Positions 2,828 through 29,649 of a stretch of 32,000 nucleotides of DNA are shown here, piece after piece (the stretch's first letter is position 1; each line of letters starts with the position of its first letter). The notes below the pieces were generated by a model, which worked only from the letters and a program-made list of their open reading frames with translations, did no database searches and was not told the origin of the DNA. This DNA is from Blastococcus sp. Lineage in GTDB: Bacteria > Actinomycetota > Actinomycetes > Mycobacteriales > Geodermatophilaceae. A program made the translations under genes and the position numbers. The stretch spans positions 54,762-86,761 of the forward strand of contig JAODNN010000049.1 in assembly GCA_025465355.1 (NCBI GenBank). The letters run 5' to 3'.

Positions 2828-3688
2828 ATGGCGGGACGCGGCACCGGGCCCGATTTCGTGGAAGCCCTGGCGCGGGGGCTCGACGTGCTCGCGTGCTTCG
2901 ACGCCGACCATCGGCGCATGTCCCTGACCGAGGTCGCCGGCGTCGCCGCCCTTCCCCGGCCCACCGCGCGCCGGCTGCTCCTGACTCTCGAGGAGCTCGG
3001 CTTCGTCCGGTCCGCGGGCGGCGCGTTCGAGTTGACGCCGAAGGTGCTCACCCTGGGCATGGCCTACGTCGGCGCGCTCGGGCTGTGGGACATCGCCCGG
3101 CCGCACCTCGAGGCGCTGGTCGCCCGCACCGGTGAGTCCTCGTCCATGGCCCAGCTCGACGGGTCGGACATCGTCTATGTCGCGCGGGTGTCGGTGCCCA
3201 GGATCATCGCGCTCCGGGTCGACATCGGCACCCGGTTCCCGGCCGTCCAGACGTCACAGGGCAAGGTGCTGCTGGCCGCCCTCTCCCCCGACCAGCTCGA
3301 GGCAACCCTCGCCGAGCCGAGTCGGGCGGGGCTTCCCCCCTACATCGGCCGGTCACCCGACCAGCTCCGGGCCGAGCTCACCGAGATCCGGGCGCGCGGC
3401 TGGGCCCTCGCCGACGAGGAGCTGGCGCCGGGAGTGCGCTCGGTCGCCGCTCCGGTGCGGGACGGGGACGGCGCGGTCCGCGCGGCCATGAATGTCACCG
3501 TGCACGCGGCCGAGACGTCGACCGACCGCCTGGTGCACGACCACCTGCCGCTGCTCCTTTGCACCGCCGGCGACATCAGCGCGGAGTGGGCGCTGTGGCA
3601 GAGCCGCCCGCACGTGGAGGTTGCCCGCCAGGGCGTTCACGGCGGTCCCGCGGCAGCGACGAGCACCGGTGGTTCCCGGCGGACCTAG
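2828..3688 (+). CDS. IclR family transcriptional regulator (PcaR/PobR-like)
   Basis: In the frame of track ORF 2234..3688, with ATG at 2828. MAGRGTGPDFVEALARGLDVLACFD...MSLTEVAGVAALPRPTARRLLLTLEELGFV is a wHTH domain. It is followed by an IclR effector domain (GESSSMAQLDGSDIVYVARV...GWALADEELAPGVRSVAAPV). Confidence 0.9.
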   Translation: MAGRGTGPDFVEALARGLDVLACFDADHRRMSLTEVAGVAALPRPTARRLLLTLEELGFVRSAGGAFELTPKVLTLGMAYVGALGLWDIARPHLEALVARTGESSSMAQLDGSDIVYVARVSVPRIIALRVDIGTRFPAVQTSQGKVLLAALSPDQLEATLAEPSRAGLPPYIGRSPDQLRAELTEIRARGWALADEELAPGVRSVAAPVRDGDGAVRAAMNVTVHAAETSTDRLVHDHLPLLLCTAGDISAEWALWQSRPHVEVARQGVHGGPAAATSTGGSRRT

Positions 3689-3740
3689 CCGTCGGCCGCG
3701 CCGGTGGGCTTCGGCCCGGCGGGTCAGTCCGCGAGGCCCG

Positions 3741-3762
3741 CTATCGGCCTCATGGCCGATAG
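3741..3762. promoter_or_regulatory. Perfect 9-4-9 inverted repeat CTATCGGCC-tcat-GGCCGATAG (operator or IclR-gene terminator hairpin)
   Basis: Read directly from the sequence. It lies 53 nt after the IclR stop and 62 nt before the eRF1-like start. All 9 arm positions pair. Confidence 0.3.
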
Positions 3763-3823
3763 AGCAGGGGCCGTCCAGGTGGGCTAATGGAGGGGTTGCC
3801 GCTCCGGCGTGCAGAGGAGACCC

Positions 3824-5032
3824 ATGATCGCCGTCCAGGACCACCTGAACCACCTGCTCGAGTTCCGCTCGGACGACGTCCCCGTCGTCTCGCTGTACGC
3901 GGTCGTCCCCGTCGATCCGAAGGACCAGGCGGGGCTCCGGTCGCGGGTGAACGGCCTGCTCGACGAGCTCGACCCGCTGGCCGAGGACGAGAGCCTCTCC
4001 CGAGCCGCCCGCCTCTCGATCCGCGACGACATCGAGCGGTTGCGCCGAGCCGTGCTGGAGGAGCACTGGAAGCCCCACGGCATCGGCCTGTTCTCCTGCT
4101 CGGCACGGGACTTCTACGAGGCCGTGGAGCTGCCCAGGGAACCGAGGGATCGGATTCTCGTCGACGCCACCCCGTGGGTACGGCCGATGACGGTGATGCG
4201 GGACAAGGCCTACCGGGCGTGCGTCGTCGTCCTCGACCGCGCGCGGGCGTCCTTCTGGAAGTACGAGAACGACGCACTCGTCGAGAGCAACGAGCTCCAG
4301 GATCGGGCCCTGCGCACCGACGACTTCACCGGCGGACGCTGGGGCGGACGTGAGAACGCCACGCACCACACGGTCGAGAACCTGGCAAAAGAGCATTTCC
4401 GTCGGGTGATCGACCGGCTGGAGCAGCTCTTCTTCCCCGACCTGGACCACGAAGCGCAGTACCAGTCGGTGGTGGAGGGCAAGCCCGCCCCGGAGCCTGC
4501 CTACGACGTCCTGGTGGTCGCGGAACACGGCAACGAGGCGTCCGGCTTCCTCGACGAACTCCCCGACCGGCTGCGTCAGAAACTGGCCGGCACCTTCACC
4601 GATCCCGCGCTGAACGACCGCGGGGCCCTCAAGGCCCGGGCTGACATGGTGCTGGAGCAGTGGGAACGCGACCAGGAGCGGCAGCAGTTCGAGCACGTGC
4701 TGGAAGTGGAGGCGATGGGCGGCTTCGGCGTCACGGGGCTGCGCAAGTGCCTGTGGGCGGCCTCGTCGAAGGCGATCGACACGCTGCTGCTCCAGGAGCA
4801 GGACGAGGCGCCGGGAGTGGTCTGCGACGTGTGCGGCTGGCTCGGCGAGAGCGGTGACACGTGCCCGGTCACGGGCGACTCCCTGCGCCACACCCCCGAC
4901 ATCGTCGACGAGATGGTGCAGAGCGTCCTCCGTGACAGCGGCGACGTGCGCACCCTCGAGGAAAGCGTTGCCGCCGAAGGCCGCACTCCCGCCGCGCACC
5001 TGCGCTTTCCGCTCCCGCCCGAACCGGGCTGA
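3824..5032 (+). CDS. eRF1/Pelota-like protein (bacterial archaeo-eukaryotic release factor, baeRF; Rv2629-like)
   Basis: Track ORF 3809..5032. The ATG at 3824 follows GAGGAG (3814-3819); GTG at 3809 is an alternative start. The central segment FTGGRWGGRENATHHTVENLAKEHFRRVIDRLEQLF lines up with the eRF1 M-domain [33 protein letters not shown]. The C-terminal GFGVTGLRKCLWAASSKAIDTLLLQE resembles eRF1 domain 3 ([20 protein letters not shown]). Confidence 0.7.
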   Translation: MIAVQDHLNHLLEFRSDDVPVVSLYAVVPVDPKDQAGLRSRVNGLLDELDPLAEDESLSRAARLSIRDDIERLRRAVLEEHWKPHGIGLFSCSARDFYEAVELPREPRDRILVDATPWVRPMTVMRDKAYRACVVVLDRARASFWKYENDALVESNELQDRALRTDDFTGGRWGGRENATHHTVENLAKEHFRRVIDRLEQLFFPDLDHEAQYQSVVEGKPAPEPAYDVLVVAEHGNEASGFLDELPDRLRQKLAGTFTDPALNDRGALKARADMVLEQWERDQERQQFEHVLEVEAMGGFGVTGLRKCLWAASSKAIDTLLLQEQDEAPGVVCDVCGWLGESGDTCPVTGDSLRHTPDIVDEMVQSVLRDSGDVRTLEESVAAEGRTPAAHLRFPLPPEPG

Positions 5033-5061
5033 GCCGGACGGTTTCCCCGCGGCGCCCCGTG

Positions 5062-5490
5062 TCAGCGGCGGCGCAGGGCCAGCACCGGGATCGTGCGGAT
5101 GCCGGCCGTCTTCACCTCGTAGTCGGCGAAACCCGGGTTGCGACGGGCCTGCTCGGCGTAGATCCGATCCCGCTCCGCGCCGGTCAGCTCGGTGACCGTC
5201 ACCGGGTACGTCTCGGTGCCGATCTCGACGTCGGCGACGCCGGCCGCCGTGAGGTTGTAGTACCAGTCCGGGTTCGTCGGCGCGCCTCCCTTGGAGGCGA
5301 AGACGTAGATCGTGGCGGGATCGTCGGCGTCCGGCAGGTACATCATCGGGTTCACGAGGTCGCGGCCGCTCCGGCGGCCACGGTGGTGGACCAGCGTCAT
5401 CGGGGCACCGTCGAACGGGCCCCCGACCCTTCCCTCGTTGGCCCGGAACTCCGCCACGATCCTGCCGTTGAAATCGGGTTCCTCGGTCAT
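5062..5490 (-). CDS. Nitroreductase-family deazaflavin (F420)-dependent oxidoreductase, DDN/Rv3547-like
   Basis: Track ORF 5062..5571. The internal ATG at 5490 is preceded by GGGAGGAG. FNGRIVAEFRANEGRVGGPFDGAPMTLVHHRGRRSGR...FASKGGAPTNPDWYYNL...RTIPVLALRR matches the DDN family pattern. Confidence 0.85.
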   Translation of the reverse strand: MTEEPDFNGRIVAEFRANEGRVGGPFDGAPMTLVHHRGRRSGRDLVNPMMYLPDADDPATIYVFASKGGAPTNPDWYYNLTAAGVADVEIGTETYPVTVTELTGAERDRIYAEQARRNPGFADYEVKTAGIRTIPVLALRRR

Positions 5491-5692
5491 GTCGATCTCC
5501 TCCCGCGCGTAGGGCCCGTGCGGATGCGAACGCTCCGGCGTCCCAGTCCCTTCCACCACGACCACGCGCATGACCCTCGATGGTCCGGGGTAGGCGCTCC
5601 ACGTCCTCGTACCCGTTGACAGGAGCGCCGTCCGTCAACCGGCGGCCCCTGGCTGATCAGCGGACCCGACCGGCCGAACCGGAGGCACCACG

Positions 5693-6067
5693 GTGGACGA
5701 GAAGACCTTCATTGCGTCCGTTGCCGAGCGCGCCGGCCTGTCCAAGGAGGAAGCCGCGGACCTGACCCGCGCCACCCTGGAAGCGATCGCGGGACAGATC
5801 AGCGGCGGGGAGATCGAGAAGCTCGCCGCCGCGCTGCCGGACTGGCTCGTCCCCAACCTCCCCCGTCACAACCGGTCGGCCCACCCCATCGCGGTCAGCC
5901 AGTTCATCCGCCAGATCAGCCACCGCACCGGGCTGAACGAACAGGAGACCCGGCGCGGCGTGGCCGCGGTTCTGGCCGTCCTGAACGAGGCGGTCGACCG
6001 CACCCATCTGGAGCATGCGCTCGCCCTGCTCCCGAAGGACTATCGCGAACTCGAGACGGCGGCATAG
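5693..6067 (+). CDS. DUF2267 domain protein
   Basis: GTG start at 5693 with GGAGG 7 nt upstream. It contains two tandem DUF2267-type repeats (FIASVAERAGLSKEEAADLTRATLEAIAGQISGGEIEKLAAALP and FIRQISHRTGLNEQETRRGVAAVLAVLNEAV...LLP). Confidence 0.75.
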   Translation: MDEKTFIASVAERAGLSKEEAADLTRATLEAIAGQISGGEIEKLAAALPDWLVPNLPRHNRSAHPIAVSQFIRQISHRTGLNEQETRRGVAAVLAVLNEAVDRTHLEHALALLPKDYRELETAA

Positions 6068-9170: not shown

Positions 9171-9964
9171 AGGTCGCACTGTTCGCCACCTGCCTGGTGG
9201 ACACGATGGTGCCGCAGGTTGCTCGCGCGACAGCGGTGCTGCTGGAGCGTCTGGGGCACGAGGTGGTCGTCCCGCCGGGGCAGGCGTGCTGCGGGCAGAT
9301 GCACGTCAACACCGGCTACCGGCGCGAGGCCGCGCCGATCGTCGCGAACCACGTCCGGGCCTTCCGCGGGGCCGAGGCGATCGTGGCGCCGTCCGGCTCG
9401 TGCGTCGCCTCGATCCACCACCAGCAGGCCGACGTGCTCCGCCGCGCCGGCGAGCACGCGCTCGCCGACGAGGCGGCTTCCCTGGCCGAGCGGACCTATG
9501 AGCTGTCCCAGTTCCTGGTCGACGTCCTCGGCGTCACCGACGTCGGGGCGTACTACCCGCACCGGGTCACCTACCACCCGACCTGCCACTCGCTCCGGCT
9601 CCTGCGCGTCGGCGACCGGCCGCTGCGACTCCTGCGCGCCGTCCGCGGGCTGGAGCTTGCCGAGTTGCCCGGCGCCGACCAGTGCTGCGGCTTCGGCGGC
9701 ACCTTCGCGGTGAAGAACGCCGACACGTCGACTGCGATGCTCACCGACAAGATGGCCAACGTGCTCTCCACGCACGCGGAGGTGTGCACCGCCGGCGACG
9801 CCTCGTGCCTTCTGCACATCGGCGGCGGGCTGTCCCGGATGCGGTCGGGAACCCGCACCGTGCACCTCGCGGAGATCCTCGCCTCCACCGAGGAAGCCGT
9901 GCAGCCCGACCAGAGCACCCGGCCGGCGATCAGTGCGGTGAACGCCGAAGGGACGACGTCATGA
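9167..9964 (+). CDS. lutA: Lactate utilisation protein A, (Fe-S)-binding CCG-domain oxidoreductase (LutA/YkgE)
   Basis: GTG at 9167, in frame with track ORF 7601..9964. VKVALFATCLVDTMVPQVARATAVLLERLGHEVVVPPGQACCGQMH...HPTCHSLR...CCGFGGTFAVK shows two CCG motifs. Confidence 0.85.
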   Translation: MKVALFATCLVDTMVPQVARATAVLLERLGHEVVVPPGQACCGQMHVNTGYRREAAPIVANHVRAFRGAEAIVAPSGSCVASIHHQQADVLRRAGEHALADEAASLAERTYELSQFLVDVLGVTDVGAYYPHRVTYHPTCHSLRLLRVGDRPLRLLRAVRGLELAELPGADQCCGFGGTFAVKNADTSTAMLTDKMANVLSTHAEVCTAGDASCLLHIGGGLSRMRSGTRTVHLAEILASTEEAVQPDQSTRPAISAVNAEGTTS

Positions 9965-11430
9965 CCGTCGTGGACCTGGGGATGCCCACCCTTCCCCACG
10001 CGCCGCGAGGCGTCGGCCATCTCCGGGGGAACCGCCCCTTCCCCGACGCCGCGCGTGATGCGCTGCGGGATGGCCAGCTGCGGGCCAACCTCGGGCACGC
10101 CACCTCGACGATCCGGGCCAAGCGGGCGGCGGTCGTCGCCGAGGTCCCTGACTGGGAGCAGCTGCGGGCCGCGGGGAAGGCGATCAAGGCCGCGACCATG
10201 GCCCGGCTCGACGCGCACCTGGAGGAGCTGGAACGCCAGGTGACCGCACGGGGCGGCACGGTGCACTGGGCGCGGGATGCCATCGAGGCCAACGCGATCG
10301 TGACCGAGCTGGTGCGGGCCACGGGCGTGCACGAGGTCGTCAAGGTCAAATCCATGGCCACCCAGGAGATCGGACTCAACGAAGCGCTCGAGGCCGCCGG
10401 GATCACCGCGCACGAGACCGACCTCGCCGAGCTCATCGTCCAGCTCGGCCACGACCAGCCGAGCCACATCCTCGTGCCGGCGATCCACAAGAACCGGGCC
10501 GAGATCCGCGAGATCTTCCTGCGCACCATGCCCGAGGTCGACCCCGGCCTGAGCGACGACCCCCGCGAGCTGGCGATGGCGGCCCGTGCCCACCTGCGCG
10601 AGCGCTTCCTTCGCGCAGAGGTCGCGATCAGCGGCGCGAACTTCGCCGTCGCCGAGACCGGCACCCTCGCCGTCGTCGAGAGCGAGGGCAACGGCCGGAT
10701 GTGCCTGACCCTCCCGCGGACACTGATCACCGTCATGGGCATCGAGAAGCTGGTCCCCAGCTGGCGCGACCTGGAGGTCTTCCTCCAACTTCTTCCCCGC
10801 AGCTCCACCGGCGAGCGGATGAACCCGTACACGTCGCTGTGGACCGGCGTCACGCCCGGCGACGGCCCCCAGGATTTCCACCTGGTGCTGCTCGACAACG
10901 GGCGCACAGCGACGCTGGCCGACGAGGTGGGCCGCGAGGCGCTGCACTGCATCCGCTGCTCGGCCTGCCTGAACGTCTGCCCGGTCTACGAGCGAACCGG
11001 CGGCCACGCCTACGGCTCGGTCTACCCGGGCCCGATCGGCGCCGTGCTCTCCCCCCAGCTCACCGGGGTCGAGGACAACGCCTCGCTGCCCTACGCCTCG
11101 AGCCTCTGCGGCGCCTGCTACGACGTCTGCCCGGTCGCCATCGACATCCCGTCGATCCTGGTGCACCTGCGGGCCGAGCACGTCGAGGCGCAGAAACACG
11201 CGACGCCCGAGGCCGTGGCCTTCCGGGTGCTGGCGAAGGTCATGTCGCATCCACGACGGTGGCGGATGGCGCAGAAGGCCGCAGGGCTCGGCCGGCTCCT
11301 GGCCCGCGGGAGGCCGACGATGCCGGCCGCGCTGCCCCCGCCGGCCTCCAGGTGGACCCAGAGCCGCGACCTGCCCACGCCACCGAAGGAAACCTTCACG
11401 CAGGCCTGGGCGCGGGAGCACGGGTCATGA
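9961..11430 (+). CDS. lutB: Lactate utilisation protein B, 4Fe-4S ferredoxin-type (LutB/YkgF)
   Basis: The ATG at 9961 overlaps the lutA stop (ATGA). ISGANFAVAETGTLAVVESEGNGRM...CIRCSACLNVCPVY...CGACYDVCPV is a DUF162 domain plus two 4Fe-4S motifs. Confidence 0.9.
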   Translation: MTVVDLGMPTLPHAPRGVGHLRGNRPFPDAARDALRDGQLRANLGHATSTIRAKRAAVVAEVPDWEQLRAAGKAIKAATMARLDAHLEELERQVTARGGTVHWARDAIEANAIVTELVRATGVHEVVKVKSMATQEIGLNEALEAAGITAHETDLAELIVQLGHDQPSHILVPAIHKNRAEIREIFLRTMPEVDPGLSDDPRELAMAARAHLRERFLRAEVAISGANFAVAETGTLAVVESEGNGRMCLTLPRTLITVMGIEKLVPSWRDLEVFLQLLPRSSTGERMNPYTSLWTGVTPGDGPQDFHLVLLDNGRTATLADEVGREALHCIRCSACLNVCPVYERTGGHAYGSVYPGPIGAVLSPQLTGVEDNASLPYASSLCGACYDVCPVAIDIPSILVHLRAEHVEAQKHATPEAVAFRVLAKVMSHPRRWRMAQKAAGLGRLLARGRPTMPAALPPPASRWTQSRDLPTPPKETFTQAWAREHGS

Positions 11431-12084: not shown

Positions 12085-14274
12085 TCACTGCCCGGCGACG
12101 CCGACCGGCTGCTTCTCCTCGGCGTGGGGCGCCTCGTCGACCTGCTGGAGGCCGACGCCCTCGACGTCCAGAGTGGGCAGCCAGCGCAACCACCGGGGCA
12201 GCCACCAGGCGCGCTCCCCGAGCAGGGCCAGGGCGGCGGGGACGAGGACCATCCGGACGACGAAGGCGTCGAAGAGGATCCCGGAGGCGAGCGCGAAGGC
12301 GATCGACTTGATGGTGGCCTCTCCGGTCGGCACGAACCCCGCGAAGACCGAGAACATGATCAGCGCCGCAGCGACCACGACCGGAGCCGCCTGCCGGAAG
12401 CCGGTGGCGATGGCCTCCCGCGCTGCGAGGCCGTGGCTGTGCGCCTCGTGCATCCGGGAGACGAGGAACACCTGGTAGTCCATCGCCAGCCCGAACAGGA
12501 TGCCGACCACGAGAATGGGCGTGAGGCTGATCAGCGGGCCGGTGCTGTCGAGGTTGACCGCGCCGCCCAACCACCCCCACTGGAACACCGCGACGGTGGC
12601 GCCGAGCGAGGCGCCGATGGTCAGCAGGAAGCCGAGCACACCGACCAGGGGCACCGGCAGCGAGCGGAACACCAGCACGAGCAGCACCAGCGCGAGGCCC
12701 ACGACGAGAGCCAGGTAGACGGGCAGGGCGCGGTTGAGGGTCGCGGCCACGTCGACGCTGACGGCGGTGCTGCCGGTGACGTAGGCCCGGGCCCCGTCGG
12801 TGTGGGAGAGCTGCGCACGCAGGTCGGTGACGAGCTGCTCGGTCGCCGGGCTGGTGGGGCCGGACTTCGGGACGACGGTGAGCAGGGCGGCGCTGCCGTC
12901 GGCGTTGGGGATCGGGCCGGCGACGACCGCGACGTCGTCCAGCCCGGCGATCGCCCCCTTGACCTGCGTGGCGGTGCCGGGCGCCCCGGCGCCGTCGAAC
13001 AGGACCGTGATCGGGCCGTTGAACCCGGGGCCGAAACCGTCGGCGAGCAACTGCTGGGCCGCGGCCTGCGTGCTGCCCACGGGCGGCGTCTGCTCCAGGG
13101 TGGTCCGCATCGAGAAGAAGGGGACGGCGATCGCGCCCAGGGCGGCCACGGACACGAGCAGCGCCACGACGCGCCGGCGGGTGATCGTCGCGACCCAGCC
13201 GGAGAAGAAGCCACGTGAGGTGTCGGCGCCCCCCGGCTCGGCGGTCAGGCCGGTGCGCTGTTTGCGGGGCAGGGCACGGAGACCGAGGTAGCTCAGTGCC
13301 GCGGGGACGAGGGTGAGGGCGATCAGCACCGCGACGACGACCGTCGCGGCCGCGGCCACGCCCATCTGCGTCAGGAACGGGATGCCGGCGACGAAGAGCC
13401 CGGCGAGGGCGATGACGACGGTGAGGCCGGCGGTGACCACGGCCGAGCCGGCGGTTCCCACGGCGGTGCCGATGGCGGTGCCGATGTCGGAACCGCGCCG
13501 CAGCTCCTGCCGGAACCGGGTGACGATGAACAGGGCGTAGTCGATGCCGACGGCCAGGCCGAGCATCGCGGCCAGGGTGGGGGTGGTCGACGACAGCTCG
13601 GTGAAGCCGGTGGCGATGGTGATGCCCAGGACCCCGATGCCCACGCCGACGACCGCGGTCAGGAGGTTCATGCCGGCGGCGATCAGGGATCCGTACGTGA
13701 CCGCGAGGATGACCAGGGCGACGACGACGCCGATCGCCTCCGCGGGGCCACCGACGTTCGGAGGCGCCGTCACGGCCTCGCCGGTGACCTCCACGGTGAG
13801 TCCGGTGCCGCCGGCGTCGGCGACGGCGGACAGCAGCGCGTCCTGCTGCGCCGCAGGCACCTCGCCCACCCCGGCGGAGTACGTGACCGTGCTGTACGCC
13901 GTGGTCCGGGCGGCGTTGACCGCCGGGGCGGCCCGGTTCAGTGGGTCGCTGGCCGACGTGACGCCGGGCAGCGTGGTCAACGTGGCGACCAGCTTCTCCA
14001 CCGCTGCGGCGTTGGCCGGTGCGGTGAGCGTCTGACCCGTCGGTGCCTGCATCACCACGCGGGCCGTCGCGCCGCCCACTCCGCCGAACTCCGCGGAGAT
14101 CCGCTCCAGCGCGGTGGTCGACTCCTGCCCGGGGATGGAGAAGCTGCTCGAGGTCTTGCCGGACAGCGTGCCTGCGCCGACGCCGGCGCCGATGAGGACG
14201 AGCAGCCAGACGAGGACGACCGCGAGCCGGCGCCGATGGGCGAACGAGCCGAGCCGGAACAACAGACGCGCCAT
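12085..14274 (-). CDS. MMPL family (RND superfamily) membrane transporter
   Basis: Track ORF 12085..14373. ATG at 14274 (MARLLFRLGSFAHRRRLAVVLVWLLVLIGAG) has GGAGG upstream, 6 nt after the TetR stop. The two-fold architecture of periplasmic and TM blocks is typical of MmpL/ActII-3-like exporters. Confidence 0.9.
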   Translation of the reverse strand: MARLLFRLGSFAHRRRLAVVLVWLLVLIGAGVGAGTLSGKTSSSFSIPGQESTTALERISAEFGGVGGATARVVMQAPTGQTLTAPANAAAVEKLVATLTTLPGVTSASDPLNRAAPAVNAARTTAYSTVTYSAGVGEVPAAQQDALLSAVADAGGTGLTVEVTGEAVTAPPNVGGPAEAIGVVVALVILAVTYGSLIAAGMNLLTAVVGVGIGVLGITIATGFTELSSTTPTLAAMLGLAVGIDYALFIVTRFRQELRRGSDIGTAIGTAVGTAGSAVVTAGLTVVIALAGLFVAGIPFLTQMGVAAAATVVVAVLIALTLVPAALSYLGLRALPRKQRTGLTAEPGGADTSRGFFSGWVATITRRRVVALLVSVAALGAIAVPFFSMRTTLEQTPPVGSTQAAAQQLLADGFGPGFNGPITVLFDGAGAPGTATQVKGAIAGLDDVAVVAGPIPNADGSAALLTVVPKSGPTSPATEQLVTDLRAQLSHTDGARAYVTGSTAVSVDVAATLNRALPVYLALVVGLALVLLVLVFRSLPVPLVGVLGFLLTIGASLGATVAVFQWGWLGGAVNLDSTGPLISLTPILVVGILFGLAMDYQVFLVSRMHEAHSHGLAAREAIATGFRQAAPVVVAAALIMFSVFAGFVPTGEATIKSIAFALASGILFDAFVVRMVLVPAALALLGERAWWLPRWLRWLPTLDVEGVGLQQVDEAPHAEEKQPVGVAGQ

Positions 14275-14279
14275 GGTGA

Positions 14280-14894
14280 TCAGGCCTCCACCTGGTCGGA
14301 GTCGGACAGAGCAGCGCCGGGACGGCGGTGGCCGAGCGCGTCGAAGCAGGTGGCGACCACGTACGGCCGCCACTCGGTGATCTGGTCCTGGCGGTGGGCC
14401 GCAAGGGTCAGCACGGCCAGCGCGGAGAGGGCACCGACCACCCGCACGGTTCGCTGCGGGTCGGTGGTGCCGAAGTCGACGCCGAAGGCCTGCAGCGCAT
14501 CGACGGCGACGGAGACCGGCTCGCCGTCGCCCTCGCCGGCATCGGCGCCGACGTCGGTGACCGGCGCGAGCATCAGGGCCACGACTCCCGGGTGCGCCAG
14601 GGCGACATCGACGAGGACCTCGATGGCCCGCCGGTCACGTTCGGCGCCGAGCGGCAGGTGACGAACCTGGTCGAGCGCCCGCTGCCCGAGGGTCCTCGCC
14701 TGCGCGAGCACGGCCTCGTGCAGTGCCCCCTTGCTGGGGAAGTGATGCAGCAGCCCCGCCTTCGACAGGCCGACGGCGTCCGCGACGTCCTGCACCGATG
14801 TCTTCGCGAACCCGCGGTGGGCGAAGAGCGCCGCCGCACGATCGAGGATCCCCTCGTCGATCTGCTGACGGAACGCGCGAGCCATGCCGGTCAC
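14280..14894 (-). CDS. TetR/AcrR family transcriptional regulator
   Basis: ILDRAAALFAHRGFAKTSVQDVADAVGLSKAGLLHHFPSK is a TetR HTH. The start is GTG at 14894 or ATG at 14885. It lies immediately upstream of, and co-oriented with, the MMPL gene. Confidence 0.9.
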   Translation of the reverse strand: MTGMARAFRQQIDEGILDRAAALFAHRGFAKTSVQDVADAVGLSKAGLLHHFPSKGALHEAVLAQARTLGQRALDQVRHLPLGAERDRRAIEVLVDVALAHPGVVALMLAPVTDVGADAGEGDGEPVSVAVDALQAFGVDFGTTDPQRTVRVVGALSALAVLTLAAHRQDQITEWRPYVVATCFDALGHRRPGAALSDSDQVEA

Positions 14895-15024: not shown

Positions 15025-16215
15025 TCATCGGGCACCGAGGAGGTGTTCCACCGCCAGCTGGGCGATCCGCTCGACGCCCGCCCCGCGCCGACCCGCCGCC
15101 TCGGCGTCGAAGTCCTCGAACGCCGAGCGGTCGGCGAGCAGGTCGTCGTAGGTCTCCCCCGCCGCGAGGGTTGGCGTGGCGAGCTCGGGCACCCGGGCAG
15201 CGGCCAGTGCCTCGACCACCTCCGGGTCGGCCCGGAAGGCCGCGGCCCGTTCCCTGAGCAACAGGTAGGTGCGCATGTTGGCCGCGGCCGAGGTCCAGAC
15301 GCCGTCGATGTCCTCGGTGCGCAGCGGCTTGTAGTCGAAGTGCCGGGGCCCGTCGTAGGCCGGGCCACCGTCCGGGCCGCCGTTCTCCAGCAGGTCGACG
15401 GTGGCGAACGCCGACAGCAGGTCGCCATGGCCGAACACGAGGTCCTGGTCGAACTTCGGCCCGTGCTGACCGTTGAGGTCGATGTGGAAGAGCTTGCCCT
15501 GCCACAACGCCTGCGCGATGCCGTGCGTGAAGTTCAGGTTCGACATCTGCTCGTGCCCCACCTCGGGGTTCACGCCGACCATCTCCGCATGCTCCAGGGT
15601 CGAGATGAACGCCAGGGCGTGCCCGATGGTCGGAAGGAAGATGTCCCCGCGCGGCTCGTTGGGCTTCGGCTCGAGCGCGAACCGCAGCCCGTGACCGCGG
15701 TCGGCCGAGTACTGCGCCAGGGTGTCCAGGACCTCCCGGTAGCGGTCCAGGGCGGCCCGCAGGTCCTTCGCGGTGTCGATCTCGGCGCCCTCGCGGCCGC
15801 CCCAGAGCACGTACGTCCGCGCCCCCAGCTCGGCAGCGAGATCCATGTTCCGCATGACCTTGCGCATCGCGAAGCGGCGCACGTCGCGGTCGTTCGCGGT
15901 GAGCGCCCCCTCCTTGAACACCGGATGGGTGAACAGGTTGGTCGTCAGCATCGGCACGACGAGGCCGGTCTCCTCCAGCGCGGCGCGGAAACGCTTGATG
16001 TGCTGCTCGCGGGCGGCGCCGTCAGTGCCGAACGGGACCAGGTCGTCGTCGTGGAAGGTGACGCCGTAGGCGCCGAGCTCGGCAAGGCGGTGGACGCTCT
16101 CCACCGGATCGAGGGGCGGCCGGGTGGTGTCACCGAACGGGTCGCGGGCCGGCCAGCCCACCGTCCAGAGACCGAAGGAGAACTTGTCCTCGCGGGTGGG
16201 CTGCGGCGTACTCAT
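15025..16215 (-). CDS. xylA: Xylose isomerase, class I (actinobacterial type)
   Basis: Track ORF 15025..16572. The ATG at 16215 is preceded by [35 protein letters not shown]...TFHDDDL...[18 protein letters not shown]...NPEVGHEQM...HIDLNGQ...FDYKP is close to the Streptomyces/Actinoplanes XylA sequence along its full length. Confidence 0.95.
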
Positions 16216-16420
16216 GGGGAGATCCTCCCGCTGATGGCCGACACCGTCACACCCGTGCCGGACGCCGACCCACCGTCTGTTCGCCCGTGGGGATGCACAA
16301 CAAGATCGTCCTACGCCGTGTGATGACGGTGAGCAGGCTGCGCCGGATGGGACGAAATGCGAAATTCTCCAGCGGCAGGGCATCCCCGCCCTCGGCCTCG
16401 CGCCCTTCACACTTCCGGCC

Positions 16421-17188
16421 ATGCGGCTGGCGGTGTGCTCGTCCAAAGGTGGAGTCGGTAAAACGACGACGGCGGCCAACGTGGCCGTCGCTCTGGGCCG
16501 GCGCGGCAGGGTGCTGGCGGTGGACGTCGATCCGCAGGAGAGCCTCGGGCGGGCGTTCGGAGTGGTTGCCAAGGGCCGTTACGACAGCCTGGCGGCCTTG
16601 CTCGAGGACCCCACCGAGGAACCCCGCGCGATCATCCGGCACGACGTCGCCCCCGGGCTCGACCTCCTCCCCGCCCATCCGATGCTGGAGACGGTTGCCG
16701 TCCACCTGACCACCACCGGGGGTCTCACCACCAGCGTCCGGCGTGCGCTGAAGCCGCTGCTGAGCGACTACGACCACATCGTCCTCGACACCCGCGGCGA
16801 CCTGACCGGCCTGACCCTGGCCGCCGTCTGCGCCGTCGACTCGGTGCTCACCGTCTTCACCAGCGATCCCGGCTCGGCCCTCGGCGTCGCGCGGGTCGCC
16901 GCCTTCCTCGAGCAGCACCGGGCATACGAGAACACCTCCGCCGTCCTCGCCGGTGTCGCCTGCGCCGCCTGGGACCCGCACGGCCGCGCGGCGCGGGAGG
17001 TCCTGGGCGCTCTGGAGGGCACCGACCTGCCCCTCATGCGGACACGCATCCCGCTGTCCCGTCGCGTGCCGACCAGCACGCTCGCCAAGCTCCCCGTCGT
17101 CCTCTCCACGCCCACGAGCTCGGTGGCGATCGCCTACCTGGCGCTGGCCGACGAGTTGCTCAGCGCCGCCGAAAGGGTTGCCGCATGA
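16421..17188 (+). CDS. ParA/Soj-family P-loop ATPase (orphan; no ParB nearby)
   Basis: [39 protein letters not shown] carries the deviant Walker A with the signature lysine. Walker B is HIVLDTRGD. Confidence 0.85.
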
Positions 17189-17646: not shown

Positions 17647-18312
17647 ATGACGGCCGCCGCATCAACCGCCCTCGCGCGCACGCGCGAGAGCTGGCACCGG
17701 CTGGCCGAGCACGTCCTCGGCGCCGGGCAGTTCGCCGCCGCGGGCACGATCCGCCTGCGCCCGGTTCCAGAAGGCTTCCAGACGGTGGTCGGCATCGACG
17801 GGCGGCACGTTGCGGTGGCCGGCGACCGGCTCGTCGTCCTCGTCGCCGACCAGCGCCGCTCCACCCCGCTGACCACCGTCGGTGCCGCCGCGGCGTTCGC
17901 CGGCGTGATCCCCGGACTCACCGGCAGCTATCCCCCGGTCACGTCGTCCGATCCGGACGCGCCCCTGACCGTCGACCCGGAGGCAGCCCGGCTGCTGGCT
18001 GCCTGGTACGCCCTGGGCGATCTCGCGCTCCGGCGGTTCACCGCCGAGCTCGGCGCTCCGCAGGAGCCCGTTCTCTGGCCGGAGCACCTCGACGTCGCGG
18101 TGACGGTGGACGCCGTCAATTACGGCTGCTCCCCCGGTGACGCGGCCATTCCCGGGCCCTACGCCTACGTCGGACCCCATCAGCCGCCGACGGCGGACCC
18201 GTTCTGGAACGCCCCGTTCGGCGCCGCCGTCACCGCCGACCGGATCGGCTCGCCGGACGACGCCGTCGCGTTCTTCGCACGGGGTAGAGCGTTCACCGCG
18301 ACTGCGGGCTAG
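17647..18312 (+). CDS. Conserved hypothetical protein
   Basis: In the frame of track ORF 17521..18312. ATG at 17647 is chosen because GC3 drops in the upstream extension. Motifs: WPEHLDVAV, YGCSPGD, PGPYAYVGP. No family is assigned with confidence. Confidence 0.55.
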   Translation: MTAAASTALARTRESWHRLAEHVLGAGQFAAAGTIRLRPVPEGFQTVVGIDGRHVAVAGDRLVVLVADQRRSTPLTTVGAAAAFAGVIPGLTGSYPPVTSSDPDAPLTVDPEAARLLAAWYALGDLALRRFTAELGAPQEPVLWPEHLDVAVTVDAVNYGCSPGDAAIPGPYAYVGPHQPPTADPFWNAPFGAAVTADRIGSPDDAVAFFARGRAFTATAG

Positions 18313-18373
18313 CCGCGCCCGCGGGGCTTACATCCGCTGCGTCGCGCCCATACTCTCCGCGCGGGGAGAGAAC

Positions 18374-19369
18374 ATGACGACGAAGTCGATCGGCCGTCTC
18401 GCGCTGTTGGTCGTCGTCCTGCTGGGCCTCGGTGCCTGCGGCGGGAGGAATGGCTCGGCCACCCAGTCGACCCGGTCGGCCACGACGATGACCCTCTACA
18501 CGTGCGTCAGCGACTCGACGATCCAGCCGGTGATCACGGCGTTCGAGAAGAGTGATCCGGGCAGCACGGTCGACCTGTTCCGCGCCCCCACGGGTCAGCT
18601 CAACGCCCGGGTGGCCGCCGACACCCGATCAGGCGGGCTGCGTGCCGACGTCATCTGGGGTTGTGACCCGCTGACGATGCAGGCGTTCGTGGAGCAGAGG
18701 CTGGTCGGCGGCTGGATACCGGCCGGCGCCGACGCCATCCCCGCCCAGTACCGCACCGGCAACTACGTCGGCGCGCAGCTGCTCTACATGGTGGCCGTGC
18801 ACCGCACCACCGTCCCGGCACCCCGATCCTGGTCCGACCTGGCGGGGCCCGGCTACGCCAAGGTCGCCGTACCCGATCCCACCGTGGCCGCCTCGGCACT
18901 CGGCGCGCTCGGCTGGTTCGCCGCGAACCCGGATTACGGCATGGACTTCTACCGGAAGCTGAAGAGCGCGGGCGCGGTCCAGGTGAGCACGCCCGACGAC
19001 GTCACGACCGGCGTCGCCCAGGGCATCTACGACGCCGGGATGACGACCTCCAATTCCGCGTACGCGGCGAAGAAGGACGGATCGCCGGTGGACGTCGTCT
19101 GGCCCGAGCCCGGCGCGGTAGCCATCTACGGGCCGGTCGCACTCGCCACCCACAGCGCACACGCCCAGGTCGCGAAGGACTTCATCACCTTCGTCACCGG
19201 GGACGCCGGCCAGCGGGTGATCGGCGCGTCCGGCACCTACCCGACCAGGCCGGGCGTTCCCGGACCCACCATCCCGACGGGCGCGCCCATCGTCCACCCG
19301 GACTGGACCAGGATCGGGACGACCAAGGCCGCGATCGAACTGGGCTACAAGCAGGTCTTCGGGGGCTGA
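18374..19369 (+). CDS. ABC transporter substrate-binding lipoprotein (FbpA/PotD-like, solute-binding family 1)
   Basis: ATG at 18374 (track ORF 18137..19369) after GGGGAGAG. The signal peptide plus lipobox reads LLVVVLLGLGAC. The mature domain resembles iron(III)/thiamine-type periplasmic binding proteins. Confidence 0.8.
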   Translation: MTTKSIGRLALLVVVLLGLGACGGRNGSATQSTRSATTMTLYTCVSDSTIQPVITAFEKSDPGSTVDLFRAPTGQLNARVAADTRSGGLRADVIWGCDPLTMQAFVEQRLVGGWIPAGADAIPAQYRTGNYVGAQLLYMVAVHRTTVPAPRSWSDLAGPGYAKVAVPDPTVAASALGALGWFAANPDYGMDFYRKLKSAGAVQVSTPDDVTTGVAQGIYDAGMTTSNSAYAAKKDGSPVDVVWPEPGAVAIYGPVALATHSAHAQVAKDFITFVTGDAGQRVIGASGTYPTRPGVPGPTIPTGAPIVHPDWTRIGTTKAAIELGYKQVFGG

Positions 19370-19372
19370 GCG

Positions 19373-21046
19373 ATGCCGCGCGGCACACCTCGGCTCCTCC
19401 CCCGCCTCACCGCCCTTGTCGTCGCCTTTCTCGCGGTCCTCGTCGTCCTGCCGCTGTGTCGTCTGGTCCTGGTCGTCTGGCAGGAAGGGCGCGCAGACAT
19501 CGCCCCGATGGCCGGCTCCGACGGCCTCCGCACCGCGGTGTGGCACACCGTCGCGCTCGCCGCGGCGGTCACCCTCGCGGCGGTTCCGATCGGCGTCACC
19601 ATGGCGCTCGTCCTTCGTCGGTCGGACCTCCCCGGCCGGCCCTTCTGGCAGGTCGCCGTCCTCGTGCCGGTGCTGGTGCCCGACTTCGTCCTCGGCTACA
19701 GCTGGACGCAGGCCTACGCGCGGGCCGGGTTCACCGACACCCTTCTCGGGCTGCGCTGGGCCGGGATACAGGGCCCGCTCGGGGTGTGGCTGGTCCTGGT
19801 CGTGAACGCCGCCCCCCTCGTCTACCTGGTCGTCGCCGTCGGGCTGGCCGCGCGGACCGAGCCGGATCTGGAACGCGCCGCCCGGGTCTCGGGTGCGGGA
19901 CCTGCCACGACCCTGCTCACCGTCACCCTCCGGCTGGCGCTGCCGGGCGTGGCGGCCGCGGCCGTCCTGGTGTTCGTGCTGACCCTGGGCACGTTCGCGA
20001 TCCCGCAGGTCCTCGGCGCCCCGGCCGGGTTCAGCACCGTGACCACCCGGATCTACGCCAACCTCTCCCTCGGCGGCGACCCGACCTCCTTCATCGAGGC
20101 GATCACGCTCGCGCTCCTGCTGGTCATCGTCGCGGCGGTCTGCGTGGCCCCGGCGGACGCCCTCCTGGCCCCCCGGCTGCGGGCCGTGCGAGGCGCTGAC
20201 ACCCAGGGGATCCCGGCACTTCCCGGACGGCGGGCCGTCCGGCGGGCCGAGGCGTTCGGTCTGGCCGGCTACCTGTTCCTGACCGTGGCGCTGCCCCTGA
20301 CCGCCCTGGTGCTGTCCTCGGTGACCCGTGCCCTCGGACTGCCGCCGACACCGGGCAACTGGACTCTGGCGCATTTCCGGGAGGTGCTCACGCCCCGTAC
20401 GTTCCAGGCGCTCGGCCGGAGCCTGGGCCTGGCTGTGGTCGCGGCGACGGTGCTCGTCCTGCTCGGCGCCCTCGTGGCGGTGATCGAACGCGCGCGCTCC
20501 GGACGCGCCGCGGCAACCCTGATCACCCTCACGCTCGTGCTCCCCGGCTCGACGCTGGCGGTCGGGCTGCTGATCACCTACGGGCGATGGCTGTCCGGGA
20601 CGCTGACTCTGATCCTGCTGGCCTACCTGGCCAAGCTGTGGGCCTTCGCGCACCGGCCGATCGCCGGGGCGCTCGACCGACTGCCCCCCGACGAGATGCA
20701 TGCCTCCCGCGCCAGCGGCGCCCGGGCGCTGACCGCCGTCCGCACCGTGGCCCTGCGGCCGCTGGCGCCGGCCCTGCTGGGGGCCTGGCTGGTCTGCTTC
20801 CTGAGCGCCCTGCACGAGGTCACCATGTCCAGCCTCCTGTACGGCCCGGGCACCGAGACGTTCGCCGTCGTCGTGCTCAACAGTCAGGAACTCGGCCGGA
20901 TCGGGCCCACCGCGGCCCTGTCCGTCGTCCTCTCCCTGCTGGTCACCGTGCCCGCCGTCCTGCTGTTCCTGGCCGTCGGCCGGCTCCGGCCGCGGCCCAG
21001 CCGTCCACCGGAGCACCTGCCACTCGAGGTGGCGCGTGTCGGCTGA
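19373..21046 (+). CDS. ABC transporter permease, fused double-domain (FbpB/ThiP-type)
   Basis: 557 aa and highly hydrophobic, with two repeated permease halves. It starts 3 nt after the SBP stop. Confidence 0.85.
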   Translation: MPRGTPRLLPRLTALVVAFLAVLVVLPLCRLVLVVWQEGRADIAPMAGSDGLRTAVWHTVALAAAVTLAAVPIGVTMALVLRRSDLPGRPFWQVAVLVPVLVPDFVLGYSWTQAYARAGFTDTLLGLRWAGIQGPLGVWLVLVVNAAPLVYLVVAVGLAARTEPDLERAARVSGAGPATTLLTVTLRLALPGVAAAAVLVFVLTLGTFAIPQVLGAPAGFSTVTTRIYANLSLGGDPTSFIEAITLALLLVIVAAVCVAPADALLAPRLRAVRGADTQGIPALPGRRAVRRAEAFGLAGYLFLTVALPLTALVLSSVTRALGLPPTPGNWTLAHFREVLTPRTFQALGRSLGLAVVAATVLVLLGALVAVIERARSGRAAATLITLTLVLPGSTLAVGLLITYGRWLSGTLTLILLAYLAKLWAFAHRPIAGALDRLPPDEMHASRASGARALTAVRTVALRPLAPALLGAWLVCFLSALHEVTMSSLLYGPGTETFAVVVLNSQELGRIGPTAALSVVLSLLVTVPAVLLFLAVGRLRPRPSRPPEHLPLEVARVG

Positions 21047-29639: not shown

Positions 29640-29649
29640 GGTGTGCTCC

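What the first reader, a model, noticed from the sequence alone, without database searches (positions are those of the whole stretch)
4331..4351. eRF1-like protein whose GGQ position reads GGR-W-GGR
- **Alignment.** The product of 3824-5032 aligns by eye with the eRF1 M-domain and domain 3.
- **The substitution.** Where eRF1 has [10 protein letters not shown], with the Gln essential for peptidyl-tRNA hydrolysis, this protein has FTGGRWGGRE.
- **Extra motif.** The C-terminal domain carries CDVCGWLGESGDTCPVTG, a partial zinc-ribbon-like insert with three Cys.
- **Context.** Bacterial eRF1-like (baeRF) proteins are poorly characterised. One member, M. tuberculosis Rv2629, is dormancy-regulon associated.
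- **Implication.** Loss of the Gln suggests a ribosome- or tRNA-binding role without canonical hydrolysis, or a different catalytic solution.
Basis: partly seen in the sequence, partly recalled or inferred. Interest (0 to 1): 0.6.

Follow-up and report, generated by a model that had tools for sequence, protein, structure and literature searches.

The report
Balon-like ribosome factor lacking catalytic glutamine
This gene encodes a bacterial cousin of the archaeal/eukaryotic release factor eRF1, from the same superfamily as the Balon ribosome "hibernation" factors described in 2024; it has lost the glutamine needed to cut the nascent protein free, so it most likely parks ribosomes and does not terminate translation, making it an unannotated member of a known kind.

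Summary
Window 3824-5032 (+) encodes a 402-aa protein, and residues 170-176 (4331-4351) read GGRWGGR.

- **Fold.** An AlphaFold2 model (pLDDT 94) has the complete three-domain eRF1 fold. Its best structural matches are the ribosome-bound Balon hibernation factors: Msmeg1130 Z 30, P. urativorans Balon Z 28, Rv2629 Z 24.6. aRF1/eRF1 score about Z 19.
- **Family.** It passes Pfam baeRF_family10 but none of NCBI's three Balon equivalog models.
- **Lost motifs.** NIKS, YxCxxxF and GGQ are all absent. R172 aligns to the Gln of aRF1's GGQ. E177 aligns to the Gln of the GGxxQ loop found in other family-10 members. No Gln is conserved anywhere in the loop.
- **Clade-specific features.** GGR[WYF]GG[RQL]E occurs in 43 of 44 close cluster representatives. 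These also share a 19-23-aa helical insert and a zinc ribbon with three Cys, at the site where Balon has its EF-Tu-binding hairpin. The wider family mostly has GGW-x-G-[LY]-x-E.
- **Distribution.** The gene is accessory (1 of 24 congeners), its neighbours are not conserved, and it is never found next to hpf.

The most likely function is a non-hydrolytic A-site ribosome-silencing factor. This scan has noted the same kind about 140 times on other DNA. Verdict: new member of a known kind, modest interest.

The parts
3814..3819 (+). Shine-Dalgarno GAGGAG, 4 nt before the ATG
   Evidence: Read directly from the sequence. Supports ATG 3824 over the upstream GTG 3809 listed.
3824..5032 (+). Gene for a 402-aa three-domain aeRF1-fold protein (P0001) of the baeRF1/Balon superfamily
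   Evidence: Translation. Pfam PF18854 at 37.2 bits against a 27.1 cut-off. AF2 pLDDT 94.3, pTM 0.89. VIA-align Z 30.0 to Msmeg1130 Balon 8v9l_z.
3824..4207 (+). N-terminal domain (about residues 1-128), eRF1-type, without the NIKS or YxCxxxF stop-codon motifs
   Evidence: Matches eRF1 N-domain structures 2llx/2lgt at Z 13.4, rmsd 2.4-2.6 A over 120-122 residues. In the profile alignment to aRF1 4af1, NIKS falls on P-L-A-E-D-x-S-L, a loop 5 residues longer, and YHCDSAF falls on v-v-v-D-a-t-P.
4208..4663 (+). Middle domain (about residues 129-280), homologous to the GGQ-bearing eRF1 M-domain
   Evidence: Model residues 126-280 align to the eRF1 M-domain 2hst at Z 11.8. The Pfam PF18854 match covers residues 117-204.
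4331..4351 (+). GGRWGGR loop tip (residues 170-176) at the GGQ-equivalent position
   Evidence: The loop has pLDDT about 70 and is coil up to residue 173; the helix starts at G174. Conserved in 43 of 44 close relatives. At DNA level GGCGGACG occurs twice, 12 nt apart.
4352..4354 (+). Codon for E177, a family-wide conserved Glu aligned to the Gln of GGxxQ-type relatives
   Evidence: Glu in 80 of 113 sequences; Gln only in the GGxxQ-type members. hhalign of A1 against A4 places E177 on that Gln.
4433..4501 (+). Clade-specific 19-23-aa insert (about residues 204-226) forming an extra short helix after the long M-domain helix
   Evidence: Present only in the GGRWGG clade in alignment A1. Shown as an insertion by hhalign. 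Helix 209-218 is modelled with pLDDT 86-94.
4664..5029 (+). C-terminal domain (about residues 281-402), Pelota/eRF1 domain 3 type, ending in the conserved LRF strand
   Evidence: Matches the Pelota and aRF1 C-domains 5eo3 and 3ir9 at Z 12. L393, R394 and F395 are nearly invariant.
4823..4891 (+). Zinc-ribbon insert with three Cys (C334, C337, C347); the fourth ligand position (350) is Thr
   Evidence: C334 and C347 are Cys in 111 of 113 sequences, C337 in 94 of 113, and position 350 is Cys in 86 of 113. The close clade always has CxxC..Cxx[S/T/D] (37 of 37). The segment aligns to the Cys pairs of the aRF1 4af1 C-domain. pLDDT is 96-98.

Best explanation
The gene encodes a non-catalytic A-site ribosome-binding factor of the bacterial aeRF1 (baeRF-1) / Balon superfamily.

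**Shown here.**
- It has the complete three-domain eRF1 fold.
- The predicted domain arrangement matches ribosome-bound Balon proteins better than it matches release factors.
- It lacks the stop-codon motifs (NIKS, YxCxxxF).
- It lacks a glutamine at either of the two loop positions where active relatives carry one.

**Inferred from the solved Balon, Msmeg1130 and Rv2629 ribosome complexes.**
- Under stress it enters the A site independently of a stop codon.
- The N-domain sits at the decoding centre.
- The C-domain contacts EF-Tu through its zinc ribbon, which sits where Balon has its EF-Tu-binding hairpin.
- The result is reversible silencing and protection of ribosomes.

It is an accessory, horizontally mobile gene in Geodermatophilaceae-like actinobacteria.
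For: **Fold.**
- AF2 model: pLDDT 94.3, pTM 0.89.
- Foldseek top hit: Msmeg1130 Balon, E 7e-22, TM 0.73/0.77.
- VIA-align: Z 30.0 for Msmeg1130, about 28 for P. urativorans Balon, 24.6 for Rv2629. aRF1/eRF1 reach about 19 with rmsd about 10 A.

**Sequence.**
- The family profile hits Msmeg1130 over its full length at E 2e-15, aRF1 at 1.6e-9, and also Pelota and Rv2629.
- The only NCBIfam hits are the three 'ribosome hibernation factor' models.
- Pfam baeRF_family10 is passed above its cut-off.

**Loss of release-factor motifs.**
- NIKS, YxCxxxF and GGQ are all replaced.
- E177 stands where GGxxQ-type relatives have Gln.
- No loop column has Gln in more than 4 of 102 sequences.
- Sister lineages lack even the GG.

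**Selection.** The clade motif is kept in 43 of 44 representatives.

**Function of relatives.** Balon, Msmeg1130 and Rv2629 bind the A site, lack NIKS and GGQ, and inhibit translation about 15-fold (PMC10901736).

**Context.** 20 of 81 homologous loci carry chaperone or stress genes nearby: HSP20, HSP70, YflT, DJ-1/PfpI, DUF308, thioredoxin.
Against: - No experiment or expression datum exists for this protein or its close clade.
- It fails all three NCBIfam Balon equivalog cut-offs by a wide margin: 41.7 against 330, 33.5 against 480 and 27.5 against 320 bits. It is therefore not an orthologue of any characterised Balon.
- It has a zinc ribbon where Balon homologues have the conserved EF-Tu-binding hairpin, so the EF-Tu mode may differ.
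- No hpf/raiA gene lies within 6 kb in any of 82 homologous loci. RaiA is the most frequent Balon neighbour (PMC10901736).
- In the wider xGWxG family the loop length is tightly fixed (25 residues in 65 of 68). Burroughs and Aravind associate that pattern with catalytically active families (PMC6514570).
Confidence: 0.7

Rival explanations
1. Pelota/Dom34-like rescue factor. It enters the A site of stalled ribosomes and, without hydrolysis, promotes subunit splitting or recycling. It does not store ribosomes long-term.
For: - Same superfamily; the M and C domains match Pelota (Z about 12).
- Burroughs and Aravind proposed this role for Gln-less baeRF-1 families (PMC6514570).
- A 2024 preprint notes that a rescue role for Balon remains open (10.1101/2024.11.25.625233).
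- The lack of hpf linkage fits a role other than classical hibernation.
Against: - The N-domain is eRF1-type, not the Sm-like Pelota N-domain. Pelota aligns only from about residue 107-130 onward.
- Bacteria have no ABCE1-type splitting partner. This is established knowledge, not tested here.
- The closest solved relatives act as translation inhibitors (PMC10901736).
Confidence: 0.15
2. A peptidyl-tRNA hydrolase with a non-canonical catalytic loop. The retained Gly-Gly backbone, with Arg172, Glu177 or both, substitutes for the Gln and releases nascent chains.
For: - GG is retained at the GGQ-equivalent position and the loop is strictly conserved in the clade.
- Loop length is fixed in the wider family.
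- Pfam family 10 was singled out as possibly active (PMC6514570).
- From memory, not checked here (PMC60236 is not held): the Gly residues of GGQ matter more for catalysis than the Gln side chain.
Against: - The family-10 feature on which activity was proposed, a conserved Gln, is exactly what this lineage lacks.
- Sister lineages have short loops with no GG at all, so hydrolysis cannot be the conserved function of the group.
- The stop-codon motifs are absent.
- The genome has a separate acVLRF1 protein with an intact GGWSQ loop for such a role.
Confidence: 0.06
3. A decaying gene, or one with a function away from the ribosome, that merely keeps the fold.
For: - The gene is accessory, found in 1 of 24 congeners.
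- It has variable neighbours.
- The protein is acidic, pI 4.8.
Against: - The frame is intact and has a good SD.
- Third-position GC is 0.91 in frame.
- Identity is 65-76% across dozens of metagenomic relatives, with conserved loop, ribbon and C-terminal strand.
- The model is highly confident.
Confidence: 0.05

Closest known systems
Msmeg1130 (MSMEG_1130), the Balon homologue of Mycobacterium smegmatis (PDB 8v9j, 8v9l)
   Same: - Best structural match over the whole chain: Z 30.0, rmsd 4.2 A over 366 residues, TM 0.73/0.77.
- Best PDB sequence-profile match: E 2e-15.
- Three eRF1-type domains, no NIKS, no GGQ.
- Actinobacterial.
   Different: - Only 16-18% identity.
- Scores 33.5 bits against the family's 480-bit cut-off.
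- Msmeg1130 has a Cys-free hairpin where this protein has a 3-Cys zinc ribbon.
- The M-domain loops differ: QERAGQMREQ in Msmeg1130, TGGRWGGRE here.
- This protein has an extra 19-23-aa insert.
Balon of Psychrobacter urativorans (PDB 8rd8, 8rdv, 8rdw) and Rv2629 of M. tuberculosis (8v9k)
   Same: - Same fold and domain arrangement: Z about 28 and 24.6.
- Same loss of the release-factor motifs.
- Weak but specific NCBIfam hits.
   Different: - 13-16% identity.
- P. urativorans Balon was not reached by the sequence profile in the PDB search.
- No hpf/raiA linkage.
- The HP motif, lasso loop and bL27 trap could not be identified here.
Pfam PF18854 baeRF_family10 (Burroughs and Aravind 2019), GGxxQ-type members
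   Same: - Full-length homology: hhalign probability 100, E 5e-75.
- Same zinc ribbon, same C-terminal LRF strand, same GG position.
   Different: - Those members have GG[WLM][SAE]Q with a conserved Gln and a 22-residue loop segment.
- This lineage has Glu at that position and a 25-26-residue segment.
- The two types fall on opposite sides of the midpoint root of the tree.
Archaeal aRF1 / eukaryotic eRF1 (for example PDB 4af1, 1dt9)
   Same: - All three domains.
- Zinc ribbon at the same C-domain site.
- GG at the GGQ position; the helix after the loop.
- E 1.6e-9, Z about 19.
   Different: - NIKS, YxCxxxF and the Gln of GGQ are all absent.
- The predicted domain arrangement differs (rmsd about 10 A).
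acVLRF1 (PF18859), the genome's other aeRF1-fold protein
   Same: Homologous M-domain; also hits PF18854.
   Different: It is a 223-aa protein without the eRF1 N and C domains. It keeps the GGWSQ loop with Gln and sits next to a UvrD-like helicase. It is a separate, probably catalytic, system.

Membership tests
aeRF1 superfamily (eRF1/aRF1/Pelota/Balon fold) | Three-domain architecture: eRF1-type N-domain, RNase-H-like M-domain, Pelota-type C-domain | tested here: met
   AF2 pLDDT 94.3. Z 30 to 19 to Balon and eRF1 chains over the full length. Single-domain matches: Z 13.4 (N), 11.8 (M), 12 (C).
Classical class-1 release factor (aeRF1) | NIKS and YxCxxxF stop-codon recognition motifs in the N-domain | tested here: not met
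   In the profile alignment to aRF1 4af1, NIKS falls on PLAEDxSL with a 5-residue longer loop, and YHCDSAF falls on vvvDatP.
Classical class-1 release factor (aeRF1) | GGQ with catalytic Gln at the tip of the M-domain loop | tested here: not met
   GGR at the aligned position. No conserved Gln in the loop, at most 4 of 102 in any column.
Pfam PF18854 baeRF_family10 | Score above the gathering threshold | tested here: met
   37.2 bits against 27.1, E 4.4e-9, but only profile positions 1-88 of 143 are matched. Homologues carry the same precomputed Pfam hit.
Pfam PF18854 baeRF_family10 as described by Burroughs and Aravind 2019 | Well-conserved Gln in the catalytic loop (GGxxQ) | tested here: not met
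   hhalign places E177 on that Gln. Glu in 80 of 113 sequences, with Gln only in the GGxxQ-type members.
Balon-type ribosome hibernation factors (NCBIfam NF052287, NF052288, NF052289 equivalogs) | Score above the curated equivalog cut-off | tested here: not met
   41.7 against 330, 33.5 against 480 and 27.5 against 320 bits. It is related, but not an orthologue of a characterised Balon.
Balon-type ribosome hibernation factors | aeRF1-like fold lacking both NIKS and GGQ | tested here: met
   definition from PMC10901736.
Balon-type ribosome hibernation factors | EF-Tu-binding beta-hairpin insertion in the C-domain | tested here: inconclusive
   An insertion exists at the same site, but it is a Cys-bearing zinc ribbon, not the Cys-free hairpin of Msmeg1130. 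Burroughs and Aravind regard the hairpin as a possible degenerate ribbon (PMC6514570).
Balon-type ribosome hibernation factors | HP motif at the decoding centre, lasso loop around A2602, bL27 trap | not testable with these tools
   Residue-level superposition on 8rd8 or 8v9l is not available. The paper text gives no residue numbers.
Balon-type ribosome hibernation factors | Binds the ribosomal A site and inhibits translation | not testable with these tools
   Needs biochemistry or cryo-EM.
Balon-type ribosome hibernation factors | Stress-operon context, most often next to raiA/hpf | tested here: not met
   No HPF within 6 kb in 82 loci. The genome's own hpf is on another contig. Stress-type neighbours occur in 20 of 81 loci, with no single neighbour in more than 9.
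Pelota/Dom34 | Sm-like N-domain with loop A; M and C domains without GGQ | tested here: not met
   The N-domain matches the eRF1 N-domain (Z 13.4). Pelota chains align only from about residue 107-130 onward.

The most novel reading that the evidence does not exclude
The zinc-ribbon-bearing, Gln-less lineage of baeRF family 10 may be a functionally distinct class of A-site factor, not a passive Balon-like plug. The lineage has a fixed-length GGW-x-G-[LY]-x-E loop, which in this clade reads GGR-W-GG-R-E.

- Because it keeps the ancestral aRF1-type zinc ribbon instead of Balon's hairpin, it might be delivered by EF-Tu-GTP, as aRF1 is by aEF1-alpha.
- Its strictly conserved aromatic/Arg/Glu loop might act at the peptidyl-transferase centre by a Gln-independent mechanism, either release or active blocking of the P-site ester.
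Probability: 0.12. Interest if true: 0.65.

Novelty: new member of a known kind. Interest (0 to 1): 0.3.

Why it matters
- **Annotation.** Balon-type factors change the picture of how bacteria silence ribosomes under stress. This protein and its roughly 1,450 cluster-level relatives are still labelled 'peptide chain release factor subunit 1', 'baeRF10 domain-containing' or 'hypothetical'.
- **A possible functional split.** This actinobacterial lineage has the Balon-like fold but keeps the ancestral zinc ribbon and has exchanged the family-10 Gln for Glu. That marks a candidate dividing line inside family 10 between possibly catalytic (GGxxQ) and non-catalytic members.
- **Test material.** The lineage offers natural variants for asking what the M-domain loop and the EF-Tu-facing insert do.
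- **Organism.** The gene adds one accessory stress-tolerance candidate to a genome that also carries a [NiFe]-hydrogenase.

Tried and rejected
- **Conserved operon.** Clustering the ORFs of 81 loci (+/-6 kb) found no neighbour family in more than 9 loci. The window's own neighbours (amidohydrolase, IclR, Ddn-like reductase, DUF2267, SMP-30) recur in 0-2 of 82 loci.
- **Apparent DUF2267 cluster.** This was an artefact of antisense stop-to-stop ORFs overlapping the baeRF gene. For example, the L007 neighbour is MsrA.
- **hpf linkage.** None found.
- **Paralogues.** The genome has no second copy. The second PF18854 hit is acVLRF1.
- **Defence system.** No PADLOC hit.
- **Promoter or terminator.** The consensus scans found nothing in 3500-5300. 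A shared GAGCAG...GGGCTA upstream string in two close homologues has inconsistent spacing and is absent from G. ruber, so it was not pursued.
- **A conserved Gln elsewhere in the loop.** Rejected.
  - The eRF1 Q185 mutagenesis paper PMC60236 is not held.
- **Unpublished genomes.** The phylum tally (140 of 301 genomes with a PF18854 hit) includes four unpublished genomes: G127, G159, G187 and G307. No other claim rests on them, and locus L093 (G127) was left out of the loop survey.

Full report
**Observation.** Window 3824-5032 (+) is an open frame of 402 codons. It has strong coding signatures, with third-position GC of 0.91. A GAGGAG Shine-Dalgarno lies 4 nt before the ATG. At DNA level the motif contains GGCGGACG twice, 12 nt apart.

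**What it is, by sequence.**
- Pfam assigns baeRF_family10 (PF18854) at 37.2 bits against a 27.1-bit cut-off, covering residues 117-204.
- The only NCBIfam hits are the three 'ribosome hibernation factor' equivalogs: AOC03_06830 (Balon), MSMEG_1130 and Rv2629. All are far below their cut-offs.
- A profile of 26 family members hits Msmeg1130 Balon (8v9j) over the full length at E 2e-15. It also hits aRF1 (4af1) at 1.6e-9, Pelota, and Rv2629.

**What it is, by structure.**
- An AlphaFold2 model built on 113 sequences is very confident: pLDDT 94.3, pTM 0.89. Only the loop at residues 160-173 drops to about 70.
- Foldseek ranks Msmeg1130 Balon first, with E 7e-22 and TM 0.73/0.77.
- VIA-align gives Z 30.0 for Msmeg1130, about 28 for P. 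urativorans Balon and 24.6 for Rv2629.
- aRF1/eRF1 reach only about 19, with rmsd about 10 A, because the domain arrangement differs.
- Each domain also matches on its own: eRF1 N-domain Z 13.4, eRF1 M-domain Z 11.8, Pelota/aRF1 C-domain Z 12. Pelota aligns only from the M-domain onward.

**The release-factor motifs.** In the profile alignment to aRF1:
- NIKS falls on P-L-A-E-D-x-S-L, in a loop five residues longer.
- YxCxxxF falls on v-v-v-D-a-t-P.
- K-G-G-Q falls on y-a-g-(r/W), so R172 stands at the Gln position of GGQ.

Other PF18854 members show a second arrangement, GG[WLM][SAE]Q. This resembles the GGxSQ loop of VLRF1 proteins. It is presumably the 'well-conserved glutamine' for which Burroughs and Aravind singled out family 10 as possibly catalytic (PMC6514570). 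A profile-profile alignment against ten sequences of that loop type (six with the Gln, four without) has probability 100 and E 5e-75. It puts T169-G170 on their GG and E177 on their Gln. Across 102 non-GGxxQ relatives, no loop column holds Gln in more than four sequences.

**How general is GGRWGGR?**
- *Close clade.* Among the 65-99% identical relatives, 43 of 44 cluster representatives carry [YFAH][TA]GGR[WYF]GG[RQL]E. All 37 that cover the ribbon have CxxC..Cxx[S/T/D]. They also share a 19-23-aa insert, modelled as an extra helix at 209-218. The nearest named members are Geodermatophilus ruber, a Blastococcus MAG and Oryzihumus.
- *Relatives at about 40% identity.* These have either [YF][AG]GW[YH]G[LY]xE or a shorter YAAxxxE loop. 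They include Streptomyces, Sphaerisporangium, Dactylosporangium, Nocardia, Pseudonocardia, Kribbella and Solirubrobacteraceae.
- *Tree.* On a FastTree tree the GGRWGG clade is monophyletic (support 100) on a long stem. It nests among short-loop lineages, which nest within the xGWxG group. GGxxQ-type sequences lie across the midpoint root. The root is for drawing only, so the direction of change is not established.
- *Loop length.* The segment from R164 to H191 is 25 residues in 65 of 68 xGWxG sequences, 26 in all 9 GGRWGG sequences and 22 in all 6 GGxxQ sequences. The loop is a constrained element in most of the family, even though it lacks Gln.

**The zinc ribbon.** C334 and C347 are Cys in 111 of 113 sequences, C337 in 94 and position 350 in 86. 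The ribbon aligns with the Cys pairs of the aRF1 C-domain. It occupies the site where Msmeg1130 has a Cys-free hairpin. Burroughs and Aravind describe that hairpin as a possible degenerate zinc ribbon. Helena-Bueno et al. show that it binds EF-Tu (PMC6514570; PMC10901736). Whether three Cys still hold zinc cannot be decided here.

**Genomic setting.**
- The assembly (4.9 Mb, 195 contigs) has one copy of the gene.
- The only other aeRF1-fold gene is a 223-aa acVLRF1 with an intact GGWSQ loop, next to a UvrD-like helicase.
- hpf lies on another contig.
- Only 1 of 24 congeneric species genomes searched has the gene, so it is accessory.
- In the window it lies between an IclR regulator (same strand, 135-nt gap) and a convergent F420H2-dependent quinone reductase, followed by a DUF2267 gene.
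- These neighbours are not conserved among 82 homologous loci. No neighbour family recurs in more than 9 of 81 loci. No HPF lies within 6 kb of any homologue.
- Twenty of 81 loci do carry HSP20, HSP70, YflT, DJ-1/PfpI, DUF308 or thioredoxin genes nearby. This count is descriptive and has no background control.

**Mechanism.**
- *Shown.* The fold, the similarity to Balon, and the loss of the codon-reading and hydrolysis motifs.
- *Rivals.* I put about 0.7 on the main reading. A Pelota-like rescue role gets 0.15. A Gln-independent hydrolase gets about 0.06. A non-ribosomal or decaying gene gets about 0.05.

**Novelty.** The superfamily (2019) and its function (2024) are published. This scan has already noted the kind in about 140 other genomes, including GGW and GG..Q variants. 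The new points are at the level of a lineage:
- an unannotated, zinc-ribbon-bearing, Gln-to-Glu branch of family 10;
- a conserved GGRWGGR loop and an extra insert in one small clade;
- no hpf linkage.

That makes it a new member of a known kind, with modest interest.

**Limits.** There are no expression data and no access to contig look-ups. Residue-level structural superposition was not possible. The phylum tally includes four unpublished genomes (G127, G159, G187, G307), and no other claim depends on them.

Noticed in passing
window 3741-3762: Perfect 9-bp inverted repeat (CTATCGGCC-TCAT-GGCCGATAG) in the 135-nt gap between the IclR gene and the eRF1-like gene. It could be an operator or a terminator stem. 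The consensus terminator scan did not call it, and it is not conserved upstream of the three closest homologues.
   Followed up: partly
G000:C79, locus L117 2904-3575 (+): The genome's second aeRF1-fold gene is a 223-aa acVLRF1 (PF18859, E 5e-43) with an intact GGWSQQRF loop. A UvrD/PhoH-like helicase gene (L117 3602-5668) follows it directly. It is a candidate catalytic rescue factor, separate from the window's protein.
   Followed up: partly
window 5062-5571 (-) and 5693-6067 (+): An F420H2-dependent quinone reductase (Ddn-like, PF04075) converges on the eRF1-like gene. A DUF2267 protein with an HU-like N-terminus follows it. The trio is not conserved next to homologues: 0 and 2 of 82 loci.
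   Followed up: partly
window 27849-30747 (-): [NiFe]-hydrogenase large subunit (PF00374) and small subunit (PF14720/PF01058) genes lie about 23 kb downstream. I did not test the subgroup.
   Followed up: no
alignment A2 (relatives of P0001): The Gln-less xGWxG majority of the family has a strikingly fixed loop length: 25 residues between R164 and H191 in 65 of 68 sequences. It also has a conserved aromatic-Gly-[LY]-x-Glu pattern. Published work associates that kind of constraint with catalytically active aeRF1 families.
   Followed up: partly
window 4331-4354: At DNA level the motif is GGCGGACGCTGG followed by GGCGGACGTGAG. The two 12-nt units share 9 of 12 bases, including the first 8. The GGR-W-GGR-E string may have arisen by a small tandem duplication.
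   Followed up: no
window 9682-11430 (+), 12085-14373 (-), 15025-16572 (-), 18137-21046 (+): Other genes identified by Pfam while surveying the window: a LutB-like LUD/4Fe-4S protein, an MMPL transporter, a xylose-isomerase-like TIM-barrel protein, and an ABC solute-binding protein with its permease.
   Followed up: no
L007 5235-5801 (-), Geodermatophilus ruber: In the closest named relative, the gene divergently upstream of the orthologue is peptide methionine sulfoxide reductase MsrA, not an IclR regulator. The gene moves between contexts even among close relatives.
   Followed up: partly
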